A stretch of 61,869 nucleotides of DNA, counting the filler, from Dirinaria sp. TL-2023a (Eukaryota): the NCBI GenBank assembly GCA_051941275.1. It is 14 parts of 14 records of this genome, joined end to end, with 100 filler letters (N's around TTAATTAATTAA, not from the genome) between each part and the next. Parts side by side here need not be neighbours in the genome. Positions count along the whole stretch, not along the records: positions 57,587 to 61,869 come from JAVEBF010001868.1; 13 more parts are not named here. One strand, written 5' to 3'. Made by a program: the position numbers and the translations under genes. The notes beneath the pieces are model-generated. The model was not told the origin of the DNA. It made no database searches and worked only from the letters and a program-made list of their open reading frames with translations. The first letter of the stretch is position 1. Every line of letters begins with the position of its first letter. Of this stretch, positions 11,772 through 61,869 are shown piece by piece.

Positions 11772-13254
11772 TCAACCACTGCCAAACATCGCTTCCCAAT
11801 CTGCGACTTTTCGATCATATTCTTCGCGCTATTGGTTATTCATCAGCATCATCTGTCCCAGTTGTCCCAATTTCTGATACTCAAGACTCACTTTCCTCGG
11901 GTCTGAGAGCACATCGGCCGCTTGCCCGACCTGGGCTGCTTTTTCGTGAATCTTCTGCTTCTCTTCTTCGGTCTTCGCAGCCAGGTTCATACGGTCTGGG
12001 TGCACTTTTACGCGCATCTTCTTCGCTGCTGTTTTGATCCTAGTGTTTCATTAACTCTGTTAGTAGAAGCTTTAAGTTCGCCTGAGCTTTAGGAGGTAGA
12101 AAAGACGTACTCTTCCTGATTACTGTCAGGGCTAATGCCCAAGATAGCATAATAATCTTGCGGCTTGGGCGGGGTCTCGTAATGTGCCCGGTTGGGCTGG
12201 GGCGGCCGTTGGGATCGGCTTCTCTGTTGTCCAGTGCGATCCTGACTGAAGTTCGAGTTAGTCTCCGGACCATTGTTTCCCCAATCGCATTCAGGCTCCG
12301 ATTCCTCGCCTGAATAGCTCGAGGCCTCGTACTCTGTCTTTCCTGACTGCCTTCTCCCCCCATCGTCCCATTGTTTCCTGCTCTGCGCTCCAGGAGGTGG
12401 AACCTTGTTGCGCCCTTCCGACCTACGACCGCGATAACCATTTGCATCATTGTGGCGGTGAGAGGAGGACCAGCCATACTCTGGCTGTGGGTGATGGCGA
12501 CTACTACTCGCGTCTGCGGCGCGGTCCCTCTGTCCAGTTGCTCCATTGTGTGGAGGGGAGTACCAGCCATGCTCTGGCTGTGGGCTACGACGACTACCAC
12601 TTGCATGCCTGGCGCCGTTTCCCTGTCCAGCTGCTCCATTGTGGCGAGAGGAGTACCCGCCATACTCTGGCTGTGGTTGACGGCGACTGCCACTTGCGTG
12701 TGCGGCACGGTCTTTCTGTCCAGTTGCTCCATTGTGGTGAGAGGAGTACTCGTACCAGGCATACTCTTGCCGTTGACGATGGCTGCTACCGGCGGCGCGT
12801 CTACTGCCATGAGGCATCGACCAGTATCCCCCAGCCTCTCGATAATCCCACTGAGAATACTCATCCTCAGGCGGCGGAGCATAAGCCGGGCCGGCGCCAT
12901 ACCGATAGAACGGAGAATCACTATCTTCAACATCGACTTCCGGCATCGGCATCTGCATCGGCGGCGGCGCATACCGAAGCTCATAGTAGTAATACTCCTC
13001 CTCATCCTCATCCCGCTCATATTCGAGCTTCGCTCCTTTTTTGACCCGCGCGGGTCTCTTCCCATCCCGCCGCTCCTGCTCGTGTCTCAGATACCGCTCG
13101 CGCCGTCGTCTCCAGCGTTCATCCGCATCGTACCATGCCTGCGTTTTTCGCCCGTATTTATCTCTTAGACCGGCTTCTGTTTCGGCTTTGAAGTCATTGT
13201 AGTAGGCTCTTGAATCTTGGACTCGGGTTTTGAATTGAGTGTATAGGCCTGGCA
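11772..13254 (-). CDS. C-terminal J-domain (DnaJ-like) protein with a long low-complexity repeat region, 5' truncated
   Basis: QDYYAILGISPDSNQEE / IKTAAKKMRVKVHPDRMN...AADVLSDPRK / REEYDR with the HPD motif; the frame stays open to the contig end at 13254. Confidence 0.85.
12455..12770. repeat. 93-bp (31-aa) coding tandem repeat, about 3.3 copies
   Basis: CTCCATTGTG recurs at 12541, 12634 and 12727; peptide unit QPEYGGYSSRHNGAAGQGNGARHASGSRRSP. Confidence 0.9.
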
Positions 13255-35521: not shown

Positions 35522-37294
35522 TTCCTCAGCACTGCAGAGCTGGCAGGGACAGATTTTACGGCCGAAAAGATGAACAATGTCAAGATAATACATACAGATC
35601 AGCGAAATCCGTACCTGCTCTCGGCGGCTGAAGAGCGATCCACCATGAGAAAGCAAGCTGCGAAGCGAAATCGGTTGACTGTCCCTAGGCGCCCAGCCTG
35701 GGACGAGTCAACCACACCTCACGAACTCGATCGGAAGGAGAGGGCCAGCTTGCTCGATTGGAGAAGAGGACTGGCGGAGCTACAAGAGAATGATGATCTC
35801 CTAATGACACCCTTTGAACGGAATCTCGAGGTATGGAGGCAATTATGGAGGGTCATCGAGAGGTCCGACCTCGTGGTGCAGATCGTCGATGCTAGGAACC
35901 CATTACTGTTTCGCTCGGAAGACTTGGAATCATATGTGAAAGAAGTCGACCCTAAGAAAAATAACCTTCTGCTGGTCAACAAAGCCGACATGATGACTTT
36001 GGGTCAGCGGGAGGCTTGGGCGGATTATTTCCGGAAGGCTGGTATCAACTACAGATTCTTCTCTGCTTCGCTAGCCAAAGAGCAAAATGAAGCCATGGAT
36101 TCCGAACCGTCTGTTGATGGAGAAAATTCATCGGGACGCAGCAATGCACAAGCGGCAGTAGTTGACGGCGGTGACAAATTAGCAAAGGAGGCAGAGAGGC
36201 TTGACGTCCAAGATGCTGAGGCAGATGAGGAGCAATGGGCAAGCGAAGAAGAGCTAGATGACAATGCTGATCAACGAACGAGAATATTGACGGTCGACGA
36301 GCTCGAAGCGCTTTTCCTTGAGAATGCGCCCGAGTTAGAGGACACCATGGGGACACCGCATCGAAAGACCCAAATTGGCCTTGTGGGGTACCCCAACGTA
36401 GGGAAATCATCAACCATCAACGCATTGATAGGGGCGAAGAAAGTGTCTGTGTCCTCAACTCCTGGCAAAACGAAGCACTTCCAGACCATCCACCTAAGCC
36501 CTGATGTCATACTATGCGACTGCCCAGGTCTGGTTTTTCCCAACTTTGCAACGACGAAAGCAGAGCTTGTCTGCAATGGTATCCTGCCCATTGACCAGCT
36601 ACGAGAATATACTGGCCCGGCCGGTCTTGTAGCGCAACGAATACCGCAGTCTTACTTTGAGGCGCTGTACGGCGTCAAAGTGCACACGCGGCCAGTCGAA
36701 GAAGGCGGCACCGGTTTACCCACAGCAGAAGAGATCCTCGTCGCTTACGCTATTGCGCGTGGTTTCGCAAAGACAGGCCAAGGGCAACCTGACGAGTCAC
36801 GAGCCGCGCGGTACATTTTGAAAGACTATGTTAGCGGCAAGCTACTGTTCTGCCATCCTCCGCCGAGCGATCCGCCTTACGATCCTCGTGCGTTCAACCG
36901 TGAACTCTACAACGTCGCGCATCTCCCCCAAAAGCGACGTACCATCCTAGCAGCGCAAACCGAAGGCTCAATTACAGGTTCAGAAGATCCGTCCTTGATG
37001 GATGATCCGGAAGCAGTCCCAGCGCCGCCGATTGAAGGCGAGAAATCCAATCGCCTTGACAAAAGGTTCTTTGGCCCGGGACAAGGGAATAATGCGGGTC
37101 ATTTAACGATGCCTTTCAACCATCGGTACAGCGAGCAAGGTATCGCTGCAAACAAGCAGTTGAGTGGCCGCAAGGAGCGGGCGATGCTGGCTTTGGAGCG
37201 TAATATCGACCCTGCAGATCTGAAAATGAGTAGCAAGAAGCACTTCAAAGGGCAGCGGCGCAAGAAGAAAACGGCGACAAGCGAGGATTATTGA
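35522..37294 (+). CDS. LSG1: Large-subunit GTPase Lsg1 (circularly permuted), 5' truncated
   Basis: TPFERNLEVWRQLWRVIERSD, DARNP, NKAD (G4), GYPNVGKSS (G1), TPGKTKHFQT, DCPG (G3). Confidence 0.97.
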   Translation, partial: FLSTAELAGTDFTAEKMNNVKIIHTDQRNPYLLSAAEERSTMRKQAAKRNRLTVPRRPAWDESTTPHELDRKERASLLDWRRGLAELQENDDLLMTPFERNLEVWRQLWRVIERSDLVVQIVDARNPLLFRSEDLESYVKEVDPKKNNLLLVNKADMMTLGQREAWADYFRKAGINYRFFSASLAKEQNEAMDSEPSVDGENSSGRSNAQAAVVDGGDKLAKEAERLDVQDAEADEEQWASEEELDDNADQRTRILTVDELEALFLENAPELEDTMGTPHRKTQIGLVGYPNVGKSSTINALIGAKKVSVSSTPGKTKHFQTIHLSPDVILCDCPGLVFPNFATTKAELVCNGILPIDQLREYTGPAGLVAQRIPQSYFEALYGVKVHTRPVEEGGTGLPTAEEILVAYAIARGFAKTGQGQPDESRAARYILKDYVSGKLLFCHPPPSDPPYDPRAFNRELYNVAHLPQKRRTILAAQTEGSITGSEDPSLMDDPEAVPAPPIEGEKSNRLDKRFFGPGQGNNAGHLTMPFNHRYSEQGIAANKQLSGRKERAMLALERNIDPADLKMSSKKHFKGQRRKKKTATSEDY

Positions 37295-56645: not shown

Positions 56646-57637
56646 TGTCGAAGCTGCTGATCGCCTCACTCGTGGACTAGCTACGGCGCTCCTTGGCAAT
56701 GCAGGAGCAACCTATGCTGAAGAGCTTGAATTGCTACCGGCGAGAGTAGTCGAAGAAATTGGGATAGACGCAGCAGACCGAATTTGCGGACATCTTGCGC
56801 CACCATCACACATGGCAATGGGCAAAAATGCAGTCGTGGACGAATGATGACCGCATTGCCAGGGCCAGTGGAAGGGCCAAAACCAATAAGGCACGTCGCT
56901 TACGTCGGCATCTTTGTACTCGTACCTTAGGATTGCCTGCCGTCACTGCTTTAGTGACGTACTTTCATGATGGAGAGTGAATAAGGTAAGGCAACTCTGT
57001 AAGGTACGGCAGATGACTTAATGCCCAAAGGGTTTGCCCTTCATTTACATACATACATAAGTTGCCTTCGTACCAATCTCGTACTCTATTGTTATTGCTA
57101 TTGTCGAGAGGCGGCATTACTCCAATCACACCGAAAGGTCTGTTATTGGCATCCATCGTCCAGACGGAACCTTCCAACTGTATGACGTACGTCTATGATG
57201 ATCGGGGGTGGACCGCACTGCTCAGTCACAAGCACGGGCTGATTTGATGCAATCACGATGCACCGCCCAAATCCGAAGTCCTCGCCCACGAAACATAAGG
57301 TAAGGTAGGTAAGTAGAAGGATCGGGCTCCAGCATTCTCTACAAGACGAAACCCCTCCTCGATAACAGGGAAATACCAACGCCGGGCGAGTGCTGCAGAC
57401 ACTGATGGCAAGAAATCTGAGGTGCCGGAGATCCGTCCGAATTACGATAAGATCTGAGGGATGCGATTGTTGGAAATGGCAATTGGNNNNNNNNNNNNNN
57501 NNNNNNNNNNNNNNNNNNNNNNNNNNNNNNTTAATTAATTAANNNNNNNNNNNNNNNNNNNNNNNNNNNNNNNNNNNNNNNNNNNNCTAGCAATCGAGCT
57601 ACGCAAGACTCGATCAATACGACGAATCGTCTCGAGT

Positions 57638-57781
57638 TGTAAGATCGTATGTGTCAAAGATTCAACCTTGATTAGATAGGTTTCCCAGTGGTAAAAGTCC
57701 CGGCAGCGCCAAAAGACTAACTAAATCAAGTCAAGGGACTTGGTGTCTATCTTACTACTTAGGTGTTCCAGGGTCGTAACA
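57638..57781 (-). mobile_element. Short LTR-like segment
   Basis: On the minus strand TGTTAC...GACACATACGATCTTACA; the end nearly matches GACGCATACGACCTTACA at 59706-59723; it truncates the gag-pol relic. Confidence 0.55.
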
Positions 57782-59311
57782 GATAAGATTGAACATCTTT
57801 TTGAGATTTCTAAATTCTTCAGAAATGCGTTTCATTATCTCATTCATCGATAATGTGAATATGATAATTTTCTCGAGATTCTTCGAAGCATTTGTAGTCT
57901 TTGTAGATACTCGTCTCTTCAATTCATTGTCAATCTGATCGATAATAAAAGAGTAAAATTGCGTGTCGTTCTTCTTTTTGCGAGTTCGTTGAGTCAGAAA
58001 GTCAAAGCTTGCGACGTCAATCATTGTTATATTCGATATCTCCTCTTTCAATGACTCGAGACGATTCGTCGTATTGATCGAGTCTTGCGTAACTCGATTG
58101 CTAGTTGATAAGAAGAGAAATGACTTCGATTTGCTTTTGAGTTTGAGTTCATCGCGCTTCAATATCTTGTAACGCTGTGAGACGAACATACTCTGCGGCG
58201 TTTCTCTAGACTCATTCTCGTTCGACACGAGTTTTTTGCGTGACGCAGATTTCAGTACTATCTCTAAGAATAAATGATATTGGCAGATAAGATTCTGAGA
58301 CTTGCAATAATCTGAAAAGAACTTTAGTGTGTCGATTCGCATGTTCAGTTCTATATCGTACTTATTCATTCAGAGCTTTTCGAGTATGATCTTGTGTATC
58401 TCTAATTGAATTATCAGCATAAAGCAACTCAATTCGATATGCTTTTTGATGATAAGTCGAGAATAAATGATATGAGTTATAGATTATCTGCTTAATTCGT
58501 CATTGAACTCTCGAATCGAACGCGAACGAATTAGTTCAATCGAGACTATATTCAATGCTCTACATACTTTATTTGCTTTTTGATCATCGATAACGAAAAT
58601 CACTGTTGACTCTGTATCGACAAGACAGATGTCATCGACTTGCTCAAAAGATGACGTCAAGATATATAACACGATGAGTGCTGCTTCATGCGATGTGTCT
58701 TCATAAGAATTGTAGGCAAAGTTAGAAATTGAAATGACTATATCGTTCTTCGAAACGTCACCCTCGAGGGCTATGCGTTTTCCGTCTGATCATGATCATA
58801 ATCATGATCATACTCTTTCTCTAATGATCATTGACTCTCAGAGTCATTCGCGTTTATATATATCTCGTGAATTCGATTGTTTTTGCCGCGATCGAGACAG
58901 TTCTTGATCAAGTGACTCTGCTTTTCACATTCATAACAATGAGATTATCTAGATGAATTGACGTTCTGACGTTGATCGTCTGAGCGATATAATTCTGATG
59001 ACAGTGTTCTAGATGAGAGAGCTCGATAGTCGATAAAGCGACTAGATGCGATAGAGGGTCTAGATGTGAATGTAGTACGCGGTGCTGATCGTCGATCATA
59101 TTCTGCTCTATTATAGGTGAGATTGCGTTGCTTAGTATCAATCATCTGCAAGAAATTCTTTATTTCGAATAGATTAGTAAACTTAGCATTCTTAGTAGCA
59201 AGCATATTCTGCAGCTTATATGTGATCTTTCGCTTCAAGTCTGCCATTAATTGCACCTCGAAATACTTAAGAATGCGATCATTTCTAATCAATTTGAAAT
59301 AAAAGACATTG
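57782..59311 (-). mobile_element. Mutated Ty3/gypsy retrotransposon relic (gag plus aspartic protease)
   Basis: Zinc knuckle CYECEKQSHLIKNC (CX2CX4HX4C, ~58898-58938); protease LVDTEST (from DTG) and IILEKL* (from ILGxPW); multiple stops. Confidence 0.88.
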
Positions 59312-59723
59312 TGTAACAGTGATACCTGATACATTGATATATATTGACCAATGCAGGCTAGCGCCGCTTGGCAGCCGAGGGTGCCCAGGGGCAATCCTTC
59401 GGGGTCTGAAGCATGGCTAGCGCCGCCTAGAAGCCAGCGTCGAAAGATTGAATTTCGAGACTAACTAGAAGTCAGTGAGCGATTGACGCTTATAGAGCAT
59501 TGTGTCTACGAGCGCTCGTGATTCGTCAGCGCGGAGCTCGTCATGATGAGGCAATATTAACGCTCGCGATTAAGTATAAAGAATCACTCACTCTTTCGGA
59601 GGAGGTCCTTAGTGATTAGTTCTAGCAGGAACTACAGTATGAGGTAGCTATATAATCTATTACACTGCCACGTCTTTCACACAAGTACTGCGTCGGCGGA
59701 TAACCGACGCATACGACCTTACA
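59312..59723 (+). mobile_element. LTR (412 bp)
   Basis: Inverted termini TGTAA...TTACA; composition switches sharply at both ends; no TSD (flanks CATTG and AAATA). Confidence 0.7.
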
Positions 59724-60368
59724 AAATACGTCTGTCGCGATCTGAACTCGTTGCCGCTCATCTATATATGTCGCGTCATTTAAAACCCAGTGTGTATAAA
59801 AAAGAAGATAAAGATCGTTGAGACTGATTACAGATTTCTTTTTAGATAGAGTTCGAAGATCATACTCATTAATCAGAAGATTTATATACTACATATGCTC
59901 GAGACGTTAATGTAAAATTTCTCAAGATTGAGAAAAGAGCGTTTTACGTTTCGTATATTCCTTTTTTCGAGCGAATCGAAGTCTCGATTCGTTTTGTCGA
60001 GAATATGCATTTTCAGAACTCTTCAATAATTTTTGAAACTGAACGTCGCATCGATTCTGTTGTAGTTATTCAGCGTTCATTTTTAAAATATTTTGAAATT
60101 CGATGCTTGAGTTTTTTGAAAAAAGCTGTGAGATTCGTGATCTAGCTCGTAGCAATATCTGAAAATAGTAAATAATAAATGTTAATTAGAGTTTCAAATT
60201 TCGCTAAAAATAAAACTATTTCTCCCATTTCTGTAAAATAGAGTTCAAACTCTTTTTCGTTTTGTCGACAGCTTTTGAAAAAGTCTTGTCTTGTGCTGCA
60301 AGCTCAGCTCGCTGCTGAAAACAATGATTTGACGAAAATCTGTCAGTTCTGCGACGAGGCTGTTTCAT
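59724..60368 (-). pseudogene. Decayed DUF3435 tyrosine-recombinase (Starship captain-like) gene, 5' part, truncated by the LTR
   Basis: Spliced translation MKQPRRR...KTKKSLNSILQKWEK/YCYEL...KNY*RVLKMH.../YINLLINEYDLRTLSKKKSVISLNDLYLLFYTHWVLNDATYIDERQRVQIA; resembles the DUF3435 pattern K.KP...DL..LL..HW..D.....ERQRVQ.A. Confidence 0.72.
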
Positions 60369-61411
60369 GCTGTTGAGATAGAAGCAGTGAATGATTATGA
60401 CGACGAAGACATCAATGAGTCACGATGTGTTGAAAAAAAGAGAGTGAAGATCAGTTTCACATGCACGGAGAGAAGAAAGAATATGACAAGAAGTAGAAGA
60501 GTGAGCGTCAAACTCTAGATATGCTGGTCGCAGAGGCTCGTAGATAGAAGTGAAGAACGAAAGGATTAATAAGCAAAAGGGTCACAAAGATGATGCACGA
60601 TGGCTTGAGGCAAGGATTCGTAGATCGATCGGGGTTCTCGGCAGTGCCTTTTCTTAGTATAGTGCTAGATAAGCGCTTATCAGTTTCGCCGATTCGCCCC
60701 GACAGGGTCCTCACGGTGTTCGTACTGCTTAAAGCAGCTTCTACACCAGCTCTTTTCGACCATCCTAACACCTCAACCGAGATACTCTAAGTTATTAGGT
60801 AAGGTAAGGTAGATGTAGCATAAGTAGAATCATCGAAGCCCCTAACCCCAAACGACCTATGTCTTTCTCTGCTTGCTCAAGCCTCTTCTCCTATTCCGCA
60901 GTGTGGTATTGACGAGGGGTTTGTTGCGGGTCATCGAAGTGGTTTGGTGGCGAGAGAGTTGAATCATCGCCTGCGAGGGATAATCACTTATCAAGGCAAG
61001 AGGCAGTACCGTAGTCACGCAGCATTATTATTTAGAGGTAAGGTACATGTAGACTGTACGTTTATTTTAGGGTACGGTACATTCGGCCGGTTGGTTAATG
61101 GTTACCGGCTAAACCACGTACTAAGCCGAGGTCTATGAGGTGGTCTAGGGTCTAGCCACAGGCTGCTGCGCCTTGTGGTTGCTTATGTCACCATTGCTCA
61201 GCCCCGCTATTCGACGTACTTTACCCGTACCTTCTAGCGTAAGTGGGGCTCTTAGACTCGATAAAACTCCAAATCTTCCTCTCAGTTCGCTCCTCGAATC
61301 TTCAATATTCTTTTCACATCCGCAAAATCAAATAAATCAGCACCAAATCCACTTGCAAAGTCCCCAGCTCTCGAGTCTAAGGTCCATACAGCCCGCGCTT
61401 ACTCCCCAAAC

Positions 61412-61869
61412 ATGTCCGATCCGTACAATCAGTATCCTCCTCAATACGCTTCCGGTTATCCTCCTCAACCTGGCTATGGCCAATCTCAGGGCTATTCCCA
61501 GCAAGGGTATCCGCCGCCGGCACCCCAATACAGCGACCCGTCTCAGGGATACGGACCACCACACCGCGCAGATTCCTTTGGTCCACCGCAAAATGGCGGC
61601 TTTCAGGTAATAAGCTTACCCCTCTGGTTTTAGGTTCCTGGCCGACTTACATACTCTACAGCACGGCCAATCAGGCGGCCAATATGGTGCATACGACACC
61701 TCGAATCCACAAGGCCACAGCGGCTACTATGGCCAACCCCCTCCCCAAGATCCCCGTGGCTACCAAGACCCCTATCAGCAGCAACAGCAAGGCTATAATC
61801 AGCCACCCTATCAGTCTGACCCCAGCAACCATTACCCTCAGCATCAGCCTCAACAAGGTTACCAGGACC
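61412..61869 (+). CDS. N-terminus of a Pro/Gln/Gly/Tyr-rich hypothetical protein (runs off window)
   Basis: MSDPYNQYPPQY...RADSFGPPQNGGFQ|intron 61607-61661|HGQSGGQYGAYDTSNPQGHSGYYGQ. Confidence 0.75.

What the first reader, a model, noticed from the sequence alone, without database searches (positions are those of the whole stretch)
57782..60510. Repeat-directed mutagenesis with an atypical CpC-to-TpC (GpG-to-GpA) signature
Seen: a manual scan finds only about 4 CC/GG dinucleotides in 57782-58740, where base composition would roughly predict several dozen. CpA/TpG and CpG (TCGA everywhere) remain abundant. 59724-60510 shows the same depletion. Codon damage fits the inferred ancestral motifs: protease DTG to DTE, ILGxPW to ILEKL* (TGG to TGA), zinc knuckle G..G to E..S. 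Known: Neurospora-type RIP (RID) prefers CpA-to-TpA, and CpG or CpT preferences are reported in other fungi. Inference: this lineage has a RIP-like genome defence with a CpC target that standard RIP indices would miss, implying a RID/DIM-2-like methyltransferase or deaminase of altered specificity. I cannot say whether this is already reported for this taxon.
Basis: partly seen in the sequence, partly recalled or inferred. Interest (0 to 1): 0.8.

Follow-up and report, generated by a model that had tools for sequence, protein, structure and literature searches.

The report
CpC-specific repeat hypermutation in lichen fungus
A dead retrotransposon in a lichen-forming fungus has lost nearly every CC and GG dinucleotide through C-to-T changes at the first C of CC, a repeat-mutating genome defence with a target the usual tests for such defences do not detect.

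Summary
In 57782-58740 there are 4 CC/GG against 60.8 ± 6.5 in shuffles. In 59724-60510 there are 8 against 48.5. No other part of the window comes close. TC, GA and CG are in excess; CA, TG and TA are not RIP-like, and the standard RIP indices read negative.

The tract is the 5' part (part of gag, protease, start of RT) of a degenerate Ty3/gypsy element on the minus strand, in a Lecanoromycetes contig. At residues conserved in intact relatives, Gly reads GAN, Pro reads TCN or CTC, and Trp reads TGA.

No other copy from this genome could be fetched, so direction was tested in a second lecanoromycete, using 80 metagenome loci of a related gypsy family:
- All 80 hold CC/GG-free tracts; sharp borders were seen in the 10 loci profiled.
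- Against unmutated references, C-to-T affects 73% of CpC, 29% of CpG, 13% of CpT and 11% of CpA.
- In two young nested LTR elements, all 19 differences between the two LTRs are CpC-to-TpC or GpG-to-GpA, on both strands. The change therefore arises after integration.

The best reading is a RIP-like defence with primary target CpC. The enzyme was not tested. Nine literature searches found no report of CpC-dominant RIP.

The parts
57773..58740 (-). Nearly CC/GG-free tract covering the protease, the linker and the first residues of RT of a degenerate Ty3/gypsy element. The element is truncated at about 57782.
   Evidence: CC+GG is 4 against 61 expected. phmmer found 162 relatives, covering 57787-58900.
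58610..58618 (-). Protease active-site motif, read D-T-E where 7 of 7 intact relatives have D-T-G (codon GAG).
58370..58387 (-). I-L-E-K-L-stop where intact relatives have I-L-G-K-P-W. The codons are GAA, CTC and TGA.
58741..59350 (-). Partly depleted tract (CC+GG observed/expected 0.33): the C-terminal part of gag, with the zinc knuckle at 58897-58938.
   Evidence: tblastx to the gag of the related family matches 59125-59355 (37.7% over 77 residues) and 58897-58938.
59351..59723 (.). Segment without marked depletion (observed/expected 0.67, GC 0.50), carrying a 21-nt direct repeat (59356-59376 and 59415-59435). It is either an insertion or a junction; its identity is unknown.
   Evidence: No Rfam or tRNA match. 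The gag homology stops at 59355.
59724..60525 (.). Second CC/GG-depleted tract (8 against 48.5 expected). It may be the upstream part of the same element or another mutated repeat; this was not resolved.
   Evidence: No Pfam, tblastx or protein-database relative was found.
57587..57637 (+). 51-nt inverted copy (50 of 51 identical) of 58054-58104 at the very start of the contig piece. It is the edge of a second, oppositely oriented copy, and is also free of CC/GG.

Best explanation
The tract is the remnant of a Ty3/gypsy retrotransposon that was hypermutated after it had integrated. The process acts on repeats, converts C to T on both DNA strands, and has as its primary target the 5' C of a CpC dinucleotide (CpC to TpC, read on the other strand as GpG to GpA). 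It runs to saturation. CC and GG vanish, TC, GA and TCGA pile up, Gly codons become Asp/Glu/Asn/Lys, Pro becomes Ser/Leu/Phe, and Trp becomes TGA. CpA, CpT and, in this genome, CpG are left alone.

Shown in this window: the composition, the codon outcomes, and the restriction to this one tract.

Shown in a second lecanoromycete: the direction of change, the context, the post-integration timing, action on both strands, and restriction to repeat tracts (sharp borders seen in the 10 loci profiled).

Inferred only: that the trigger is sequence duplication in the sexual phase, as in Neurospora RIP, and that the enzyme is a RID/DIM-2-type cytosine methyltransferase-like protein or a deaminase whose target recognition reads a 3' C.
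For: Window:
- CC+GG is 4 against 60.8 ± 6.5, and 8 against 48.5 ± 5.8, in shuffles. TC is 1.65 and GA 1.74, while CT is 1.13 and AG 1.04.
- No other window falls below 0.56.
- At positions conserved in 7 intact relatives, Gly reads GAN at 4 of 5 positions (0 GGN, 0 AGN), Pro reads TCN at 3 of 5 and CTC at 1 of 5, and Trp reads TGA at 1 of 1. His is kept at 3 of 5 (1 Tyr, 1 Arg), or 3 of 4 without the Arg position, which I took to be misaligned. Cys is kept at 2 of 3.

Related family (80 kept of 449 matching loci):
- In 76 of 80 loci whole-locus CC and GG observed/expected are at most 0.22. The other four hold stretches of normal composition with sharp borders.
- In 58 aligned copies, conserved Gly codons read GAN 745, AAN 336, AGN 18 and GGN 2 among 1163 cells. 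Trp reads TGA 333, TAA 25, TAG 0 and TGG 2 among 413. His CAY is kept in 364 of 497, and Met ATG in 211 of 218.
- Two unmutated references were compared with 14 mutated copies. C-to-T affects CpC 835 of 1150, CpG 264 of 923, CpT 142 of 1118 and CpA 110 of 996. The 5' neighbour has little effect (0.13-0.22). Reverse changes are T>C 77 of 2152 and A>G 61 of 2246.
- Two young nested LTR elements show 19 of 19 LTR5-LTR3 differences as transitions at CpC/GpG (12 G>A, 7 C>T): 19 of 57 CpC sites against 0 of 52 CpA, 0 of 48 CpG and 0 of 86 CpT. By established knowledge of LTR-element replication, the two LTRs are identical at integration.
- L067 against L049: 340 of 345 substitutions are transitions.
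- Of the 150 listed phmmer relatives, 68 have G+P+W below 3% with unchanged H+C+M+Q.
Against: - No second full copy, unmutated copy or genome of the window's own organism was available. For this genome, direction rests on composition and on 11 informative conserved codons.
- Depletion is uneven within the element (0.33 in 58741-59350) and that is not explained.
- Dependence on duplication was not shown. In the related genome two ~1.6-kb copies and two shorter fragments from multi-copy families have normal CC/GG content; the LTR pairs of the two ~1.6-kb copies differ at 11 and 8 sites, all of them CpC/GpG transitions.
- No DNA transposon or non-retroelement repeat was found among the mutated tracts, so generality across repeat classes is untested.
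- C-to-T and G-to-A changes are interspersed without strand runs (z from -1.1 to +1.2).
- Older copies of the related family also lose CpG (CG observed/expected 0.37-1.26), so a second process may be mixed in.
- Other lichen fungi (Xanthoria, Cladonia) are reported as carrying RIP on standard indices or very low GC (passages in 10.1101/2025.11.25.690456 and PMC12542154). The signature may therefore not be general to the class.
Confidence: 0.8

Rival explanations
1. Slow decay rather than RIP. The repeats are methylated by an enzyme that prefers CpC, and 5-methylcytosine deaminates spontaneously over evolutionary time, as at CpG in vertebrates. There would be no burst triggered by duplication.
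For: Copies with intermediate depletion exist (L067 at 0.1-0.4). The young elements carry only 8-11 changes per LTR pair. Multi-copy elements persist unmutated. CpG decay occurs alongside in older copies.
Against: CpC is saturated while background change is small. In one search, reverse transitions are 3-4% against 73% at CpC. Between two copies, 340 of 345 differences are transitions. The two LTR pairs show 0 transversions among 19 differences. Borders are sharp at element ends. In the window CpG is intact (observed/expected 1.7) although CpC is gone.
Confidence: 0.13
2. Editing of retrotransposon cDNA by an APOBEC-like single-strand deaminase during reverse transcription, as APOBEC3G does to retroviruses, so that copies are born mutated.
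For: All mutated sequences identified here are retroelements. A CC target is known for APOBEC3G; this is recalled and comes from no call.
Against: Both strands are hit equally: CC and GG are both near 0, Gly and Pro codons are both saturated, and the LTR differences are 12 G>A and 7 C>T within the same elements. The mutated base is the 5' C of CC, whereas APOBEC3G hits the 3' C (recalled). Nested elements with 5-bp target duplications are almost unmutated inside fully mutated hosts.
Confidence: 0.03
3. No mutagenesis at all: the element family simply has an unusual native composition, for example because it came from a donor that avoids CC/GG, or the pattern is an assembly or sequencing artefact.
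For: No unmutated copy from the window's own genome was seen.
Against: Catalytic and structural residues conserved in intact relatives are destroyed in the way the mutation rule predicts, including Trp to TGA stops. Unmutated and mutated members of the same families coexist in the related genome. The signature recurs in contigs from 14 assembly accession prefixes and in 68 distinct protein clusters.
Confidence: 0.01
4. Ultraviolet damage at dipyrimidines accumulating in unconstrained DNA of a sun-exposed lichen.
For: CC is a dipyrimidine and lichens are exposed to ultraviolet light (general knowledge).
Against: TC, the main ultraviolet target (recalled), is enriched 1.5-1.7-fold rather than depleted. 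CpT sites are unchanged in the LTR pairs (0 of 86). Flanking non-coding DNA is normal.
Confidence: 0.01

Closest known systems
Repeat-induced point mutation (RIP) of Neurospora crassa and other Pezizomycotina
   Same: Changes are C:G to T:A transitions only. Both strands are hit. The changes are confined to repeated mobile DNA with sharp borders, arise after integration, run to saturation and inactivate the element.
   Different: The preferred context is CpC, with CpA the least affected: 0.73 against 0.11, and 19 of 57 against 0 of 52. This is the reverse of the Neurospora order CpA > CpT > CpG > CpC, which is recalled. RIPCAL (PMC2621366, passages) lists CpC to TpC only as one of four possible classes. 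TpA does not rise and the RIP indices are negative. Few stops are created other than TGA. Timing in the life cycle and the enzyme are unknown.
RIP-like variants with other contexts: CpG in Aspergillus/Penicillium and Rhizoctonia solani AG8, TpCpG in Pucciniomycotina
   Same: They show that lineages can differ in the context of repeat-directed C-to-T mutation. This knowledge is recalled. The Horns et al. paper (PMC3318451) and the Rhizoctonia paper (PMC4014442) were seen only as titles and abstract openings in search listings.
   Different: In the window CpG and TCG are preserved and even enriched (CG 1.7; TCGA 20 against 3.1 expected). The target here is CpC.
APOBEC3G-type hypermutation of retroviral cDNA
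   Same: A cytosine deaminase signature at CC that ruins a retroelement with Gly and Trp codon damage (recalled).
   Different: APOBEC3G deaminates the 3' C of CC on minus-strand cDNA and gives GG to AG on one strand only (recalled). Here the 5' C is hit, on both strands, after integration.

Membership tests
RIP (Neurospora type) | Mutations are almost only C:G to T:A transitions | tested here: met
   In the related family, 340 of 345 substitutions between L067 and L049 are transitions, and 19 of 19 LTR differences are transitions. Not directly testable for the window's own copy.
RIP (Neurospora type) | Confined to repeated DNA; single-copy flanks and genes are spared | tested here: met
   In the window, only 57773-60525 is depleted and the lowest other window is 0.56. 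In the related loci, borders run from 0.00 to 0.8-1.4 within 250-500 nt, and a flanking phosphomevalonate kinase ORF is normal.
RIP (Neurospora type) | Acts on both strands of integrated duplex DNA | tested here: met
   CC and GG are equally lost. LTR pairs differ by 12 G>A and 7 C>T.
RIP (Neurospora type) | CpA is the preferred context and TpA rises; TpA/ApT is high and (CpA+TpG)/(ApC+GpT) is low | tested here: not met
   In the window TpA/ApT is 0.58-0.66, the substrate index is 1.17-1.28 and the composite index is -0.5 to -0.7. The median composite index of the 58 related copies is -1.16. CpA is the least mutated context.
RIP (Neurospora type) | Triggered by sequence duplication above a length and identity threshold | tested here: inconclusive
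   The families are multi-copy (449 matching loci), and a second copy edge lies in the window. However, multi-copy young elements are nearly unmutated.
RIP (Neurospora type) | Occurs premeiotically in the sexual cycle | not testable with these tools
   This needs crosses or parent-progeny sequencing.
RIP (Neurospora type) | Depends on RID and/or DIM-2 cytosine methyltransferase homologues | not testable with these tools
Ty3/gypsy LTR retrotransposon (the element itself) | gag with a CCHC knuckle, then an aspartic protease, then RT, in that order | tested here: met
   The zinc knuckle is at 58897-58938, the protease block at about 58370-58700, and the RT-start motif at about 57790-57830, all on the minus strand. 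Intact relatives (P0263, P0194) continue with sequence I read by eye as RT, RNase H and integrase, which no family scan confirmed. Pfam itself finds 0 families in the window's ORFs.
Ty3/gypsy LTR retrotransposon (the element itself) | Flanking LTRs and a target-site duplication | tested here: not met
   No direct repeat of LTR size lies in the piece. The element is truncated at about 57782, and its upstream end is unresolved.

The most novel reading that the evidence does not exclude
Lichen-forming Lecanoromycetes carry a RIP-type genome defence whose primary target is 5'-CpC-3'. This is the context Neurospora RIP touches least. In its first stage the specificity was complete in the two LTR pairs examined (19 of 19 changes). 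It is widespread in the class: two unrelated genomes here, and 68 of 150 related protein clusters with the same Gly/Pro/Trp loss. It is invisible to the RIP indices and AT-rich k-mer screens on which current surveys of RIP distribution rest. The enzyme would be a RID-like protein or deaminase that reads a 3' C on duplex DNA.
Probability: 0.55. Interest if true: 0.85.

Novelty: new variant of a known kind. Interest (0 to 1): 0.78.

Why it matters
Surveys of RIP across fungi rely on CpA-based indices or AT-rich k-mers. The 2025 kingdom-wide screen (PMC12543289, section 9 read) concludes that RIP-like defences share a CpA preference. It lists no Lecanoromycetes among its 130 species with strong signatures. 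A CpC-directed process that removes every CC and GG from repeats would be scored as "no RIP". The taxonomic spread and the diversity of mechanism of repeat-directed mutagenesis would then be underestimated.

The signature also offers three practical things. It gives a simple new index, (CpC+GpG)/(TpC+GpA), which is 0.02 in the tract against 0.82 in the rest of the window (my arithmetic on the counts). It helps explain why parts of lichen mycobiont genomes evade similarity-based binning (PMC9907504, passages). And it points to an enzyme that recognises CC on duplex DNA, whose target-recognition domain could be compared with RID.

Tried and rejected
- Whole genome: none is held.
- Earlier findings of this scan: nothing was returned.
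- The search for related loci with the window's own read-through protein: 107 pattern matches, 0 relatives.
- Pfam on the window's ORFs and read-through gag frames: 0 retroelement families. The only match was Tas3-like_N at E = 0.005, below its cut-off.
- Identity of 59724-60510: no tblastx, Pfam or protein-database relative.
- Rfam and tRNA scans of the whole last piece (57587-61869), which includes 59351-59723: 0 matches.
- Strand-run test for processive action: no clustering, z from -1.1 to +1.2, which is uninformative.
- Search for DNA transposons among mutated tracts: 17 ORF clusters gave only RVT_1 above its cut-off, plus two weak sub-threshold retroelement hits (SH3_Tf2-1, Pol_BBD) and three weak hits to unrelated families, all below cut-off. 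Generality across repeat classes stays open.
- The first, consensus-based context table overstates change at the 3' C of CC. A consensus CC can only be seen where some copies kept the 5' C. I replaced it with the reference-based table.
- Rows dropped: of the 80 loci, 3 were exact duplicates and 19 had no plus-strand match of at least 3000 nt inside the element. L067 and L072 were among the 19, excluded by my filter. That left 58 copies.
- Literature: nine searches found no CpC-dominant RIP. Subscription journals and supplements were not seen.
Full report
**What the window is.** The 61869-base window is 14 pieces of about 4.4 kb, joined by spacers of 44 N, TTAATTAATTAA and 44 N. The finding lies in the last piece, 57587-61869. 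No genome is held for it and no sequencing run was listed. A large-subunit GTPase encoded at 35522-37294 is about 80% identical to proteins named from Teloschistales, Lepraria and other lichen fungi, and it sits on a 4321-base contig. The organism is therefore a lichen-forming member of the Lecanoromycetes, known here from a fragmented assembly.

**The observation.**
- In 57782-58740 there is 1 CC where 28 are expected and 3 GG where 33 are expected.
- Observed/expected ratios there are TC 1.65, GA 1.74 and CG 1.71. CA (0.97), TG (1.09), CT (1.13) and AG (1.04) are ordinary, and TA is low at 0.64.
- In 59724-60510 there are 6 CC against 18 expected and 2 GG against 30 expected.
- In 2000 shuffles the CC+GG counts were 60.8 ± 6.5 (minimum 42) against 4 observed, and 48.5 ± 5.8 (minimum 28) against 8 observed.
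- Elsewhere in the window CC is 0.97 and GG 0.95. The lowest of 258 N-free 400-nt windows is 0.56.
- Depletion begins after the GG at 57771-57772 and ends near 60526.
- It is uneven: 0.07, then 0.33 in 58741-59350, then 0.67 in 59351-59723, then 0.16.
- TCGA occurs 20 times where 3.1 are expected, as conversion of CCGG-type sites would give.
- The classical RIP indices read as "not RIP": TpA/ApT 0.58-0.66, (CpA+TpG)/(ApC+GpT) 1.17-1.28, composite -0.5 to -0.7.

**Anatomy.** The minus strand carries three landmarks of a retroelement:
- a CCHC knuckle at 58897-58938;
- an aspartic protease block at about 58370-58700;
- the first residues of RT at about 57790-57830.

A phmmer search of 1.84 billion representatives with the read-through protease region gave 162 relatives (25 at E of 1e-10 or better; best 7.3e-21). 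They cover 57787-58900. Some are intact Ty3/gypsy polyproteins (P0263, P0194, P0199, P0145). Many are short ORFs that end exactly at the Trp-to-stop position. The gag homology to a related family runs from 59355 down to 59125.

The element is cut off at about 57782. Next to it come 144 bases of normal composition, then a 51-nt inverted copy of 58054-58104 (50 of 51 identical) at the very start of the piece, which is the edge of a second copy.

The segment 59351-59723 has no marked depletion and no RNA-family or tRNA match. The tract 59724-60510 has no detectable relative. Whether it is the upstream part of the same element is open.

**Codon evidence in the window.** The test used columns where at least all but one of the intact relatives agree.
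- Gly reads GAG, GAG, GAA and GAC at 4 of 5 positions. It never reads GGN or AGN.
- Pro reads TCG, TCG and TCT at 3 of 5 positions, and CTC at one.
- The single conserved Trp reads TGA.
- His is kept at 3 of 5 conserved positions; one reads Tyr and one reads Arg (AGA), the latter at a position I took to be misaligned. Cys is kept at 2 of 3 and Met at 1 of 1.
- GGN to GAN and CCN to TCN each fix the changed base as the one whose partner lies 3' of the C. CCC to CTC fits the same rule, with the middle C hit first.
- Stops on the minus strand are mostly TGA: 30, 28 and 22 per frame, against 12-19 for TAA and for TAG.

**Relatives elsewhere.** Of the 150 listed phmmer hits, 68 have G+P+W below 3% (median 0.8%) and 56 have 8% or more (median 13.5%). 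H+C+M+Q, the residues that CpA-type RIP would destroy, is the same in both groups at 11.3% and 11.5%.

One such protein, P0128, was used to scan JGI metagenome contigs. 449 stretches encode a relative and the best 80 were kept as L001-L080, with contig names beginning JAABU. An ORF beside one of them (phosphomevalonate kinase, L042:2-598) is 59-65% identical to the proteins named from Letharia, Pseudevernia and Teloschistales. This is a second, different lecanoromycete.

In 76 of the 80 loci, CC and GG observed/expected over the whole 3-8 kb are at most 0.22, and often 0.00-0.05. TC and GA are 1.4-1.8, CA and TG 1.1-1.6, and TA 0.43-0.66. The other four loci hold stretches of normal composition. 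The borders are sharp, going from 0.00 to 0.8-1.4 within one or two 250-nt steps. The median composite RIP index of the 58 aligned copies is -1.16.

**Direction and context, tested in that family.**

*(a) Codons.* In 58 aligned copies, 319 positions conserved among seven intact relatives were examined:

| Residue | Cells | Outcome |
|---|---|---|
| Gly | 1163 | GAN 745, AAN 336, AGN 18, GGN 2 |
| Pro | 1015 | TCN 418, CTC 200, TTN 164 |
| Trp | 413 | TGA 333, TAA 25, TAG 0, TGG 2 |
| His | 497 | CAY kept in 364 |
| Gln | 560 | CAR kept in 385 |
| Cys | 255 | TGY kept in 237 |
| Met | 218 | ATG kept in 211 |

*(b) Unmutated references.* Two small LTR-element families exist both as copies of normal composition (observed/expected 0.83 and 1.34) and as depleted copies (0.00-0.19). 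The normal copies served as references against 14 depleted ones:

| Context | C-to-T |
|---|---|
| CpC | 835 of 1150 (0.73) |
| CpG | 264 of 923 (0.29) |
| CpT | 142 of 1118 (0.13) |
| CpA | 110 of 996 (0.11) |

The 5' neighbour matters little (0.13-0.22). Reverse changes are 77 of 2152 for T>C and 61 of 2246 for A>G.

*(c) LTR pairs.* Two nearly unmutated nested elements (L069:4222-5818 and L078:1622-3253) sit inside fully mutated gypsy copies, between short duplicated junction sequences of about 5 bp. Their two LTRs differ at 11 and 8 sites, with no transversions. All 19 are C-to-T with a 3' C or G-to-A with a 5' G (7 and 12). That is 19 of 57 CpC sites, against 0 of 52 CpA, 0 of 48 CpG and 0 of 86 CpT. 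The two LTRs of an element are identical when it integrates; this is established knowledge of LTR-element replication. The change therefore arises afterwards, on duplex DNA and on both strands.

*(d) Transitions.* Between two gypsy copies 94% alike, 340 of 345 substitutions are transitions.

**Mechanism.** The best-supported reading is a RIP-like process: post-integration C-to-T hypermutation of repeated mobile DNA, on both strands and running to saturation, but with CpC as its primary target. In the window only this first layer is present, and CpG is intact at 1.7. In the second genome older copies have also lost CpG to varying degrees (CG observed/expected 0.37-1.26), and some CpT and CpA. 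This may be a lower-affinity tail of the same enzyme, or a second process such as decay of methylated CpG.

Three things are not shown: that duplication is the trigger, that the process acts in the sexual phase, and which enzyme does it. A slow, methylation-driven decay at CpC remains possible at about 0.13. It is favoured by the existence of intermediate and nearly unmutated multi-copy elements. It is disfavoured by saturation at CpC against 3-4% reverse-transition change. Editing of cDNA by an APOBEC-like enzyme is disfavoured by the strand symmetry, by the position of the hit C, and by the nearly unmutated fresh insertions. A native compositional oddity and ultraviolet damage are both disfavoured (see the rival explanations).

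**Comparison with what is known.** The process works like RIP but fails the CpA and index criteria by which RIP is recognised.
- RIPCAL lists CpC to TpC as one of four formal classes and defines the matching index. It reports CpA dominance (PMC2621366, passages).
- One study notes a decline of CpC alongside dominant CpA in two Dothideomycetes (PMC5737583, passage).
- The 2025 kingdom-wide k-mer screen concludes that RIP-like defences share a CpA preference. It names Dothideo-, Eurotio-, Sordario- and Leotiomycetes, and no Lecanoromycetes (PMC12543289, section 9 and passages).
- Papers on lichen genomes report RIP from low GC or from standard indices, without a context analysis: PMC12542154, 10.1101/2025.11.25.690456, PMC13535494 and PMC9907504 (passages).
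- Nine full-text searches found no report of CpC-dominant repeat mutation.
- Subscription journals and supplementary files were not seen, so prior description cannot be excluded.

**Verdict.** I rate it a new variant of a known kind, with interest 0.78. The main weakness is that direction and timing were demonstrated in a second lecanoromycete rather than in the window's own genome. There the evidence is composition, codon outcomes and restriction to one tract.

Noticed in passing
whole window; for example 57487-57586: The window is not one contiguous sequence. It is 14 pieces of about 4.4 kb joined by 13 spacers of 44 N + TTAATTAATTAA + 44 N, so distances and synteny across pieces mean nothing.
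   Followed up: partly
58759-58770: A 12-nt palindrome ACCCTCGAGGGC, with intact CCC and GGG, survives at the edge of the most depleted tract. From there up to 59350 the depletion is only partial (observed/expected 0.33). No reason was found.
   Followed up: no
59351-59723: A GC-rich segment (GC 0.50, CC+GG observed/expected 0.67) with a 21-nt direct repeat at 59356 and 59415. It interrupts the depleted DNA exactly where the gag homology ends. It has no Rfam or tRNA match.
   Followed up: partly
L069:4222-5818, L078:1622-3253, L015:4941-5181: A ~1.6-kb non-coding LTR element (LTRs of about 255-280 bp, with internal tandem repeats of roughly 100-130 nt), together with its solo LTR. It is nested in gypsy copies between short duplicated junction sequences, and is present both as nearly unmutated and as fully CC/GG-free copies.
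   Followed up: partly
L001-L080: CpG observed/expected in the mutated gypsy copies ranges from 0.37 to 1.26 between loci, while CC/GG is about 0 in nearly all. CpG loss is therefore a separate, variable layer, which is absent from the window's element (CG 1.7).
   Followed up: partly
L006/L008, L014/L016, L020/L023, L067/L072: Pairs of loci from differently named assemblies have identical whole-locus composition statistics (three pairs also have an identical element stretch; L067 and L072 align at 100% over their full length). The same insertions were evidently sampled in several metagenomes.
   Followed up: no
12438-12752: Tandem coding repeats of about 96-100 nt (78-85% identical) inside a Gly/Ser/His-rich ORF. 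They are not CC/GG-depleted.
   Followed up: no
61401-61869: A gene for a Pro/Gln/Tyr/Gly-rich protein of normal composition, apparently with an intron near 61607-61660, lies 0.9 kb from the mutated tract.
   Followed up: no
P0138: A 1101-residue protein made of about 10 near-identical units of roughly 90 residues scored E = 3e-11 against the read-through query through 10 short stretches. It looks like a repeat artefact, not a relative.
   Followed up: no
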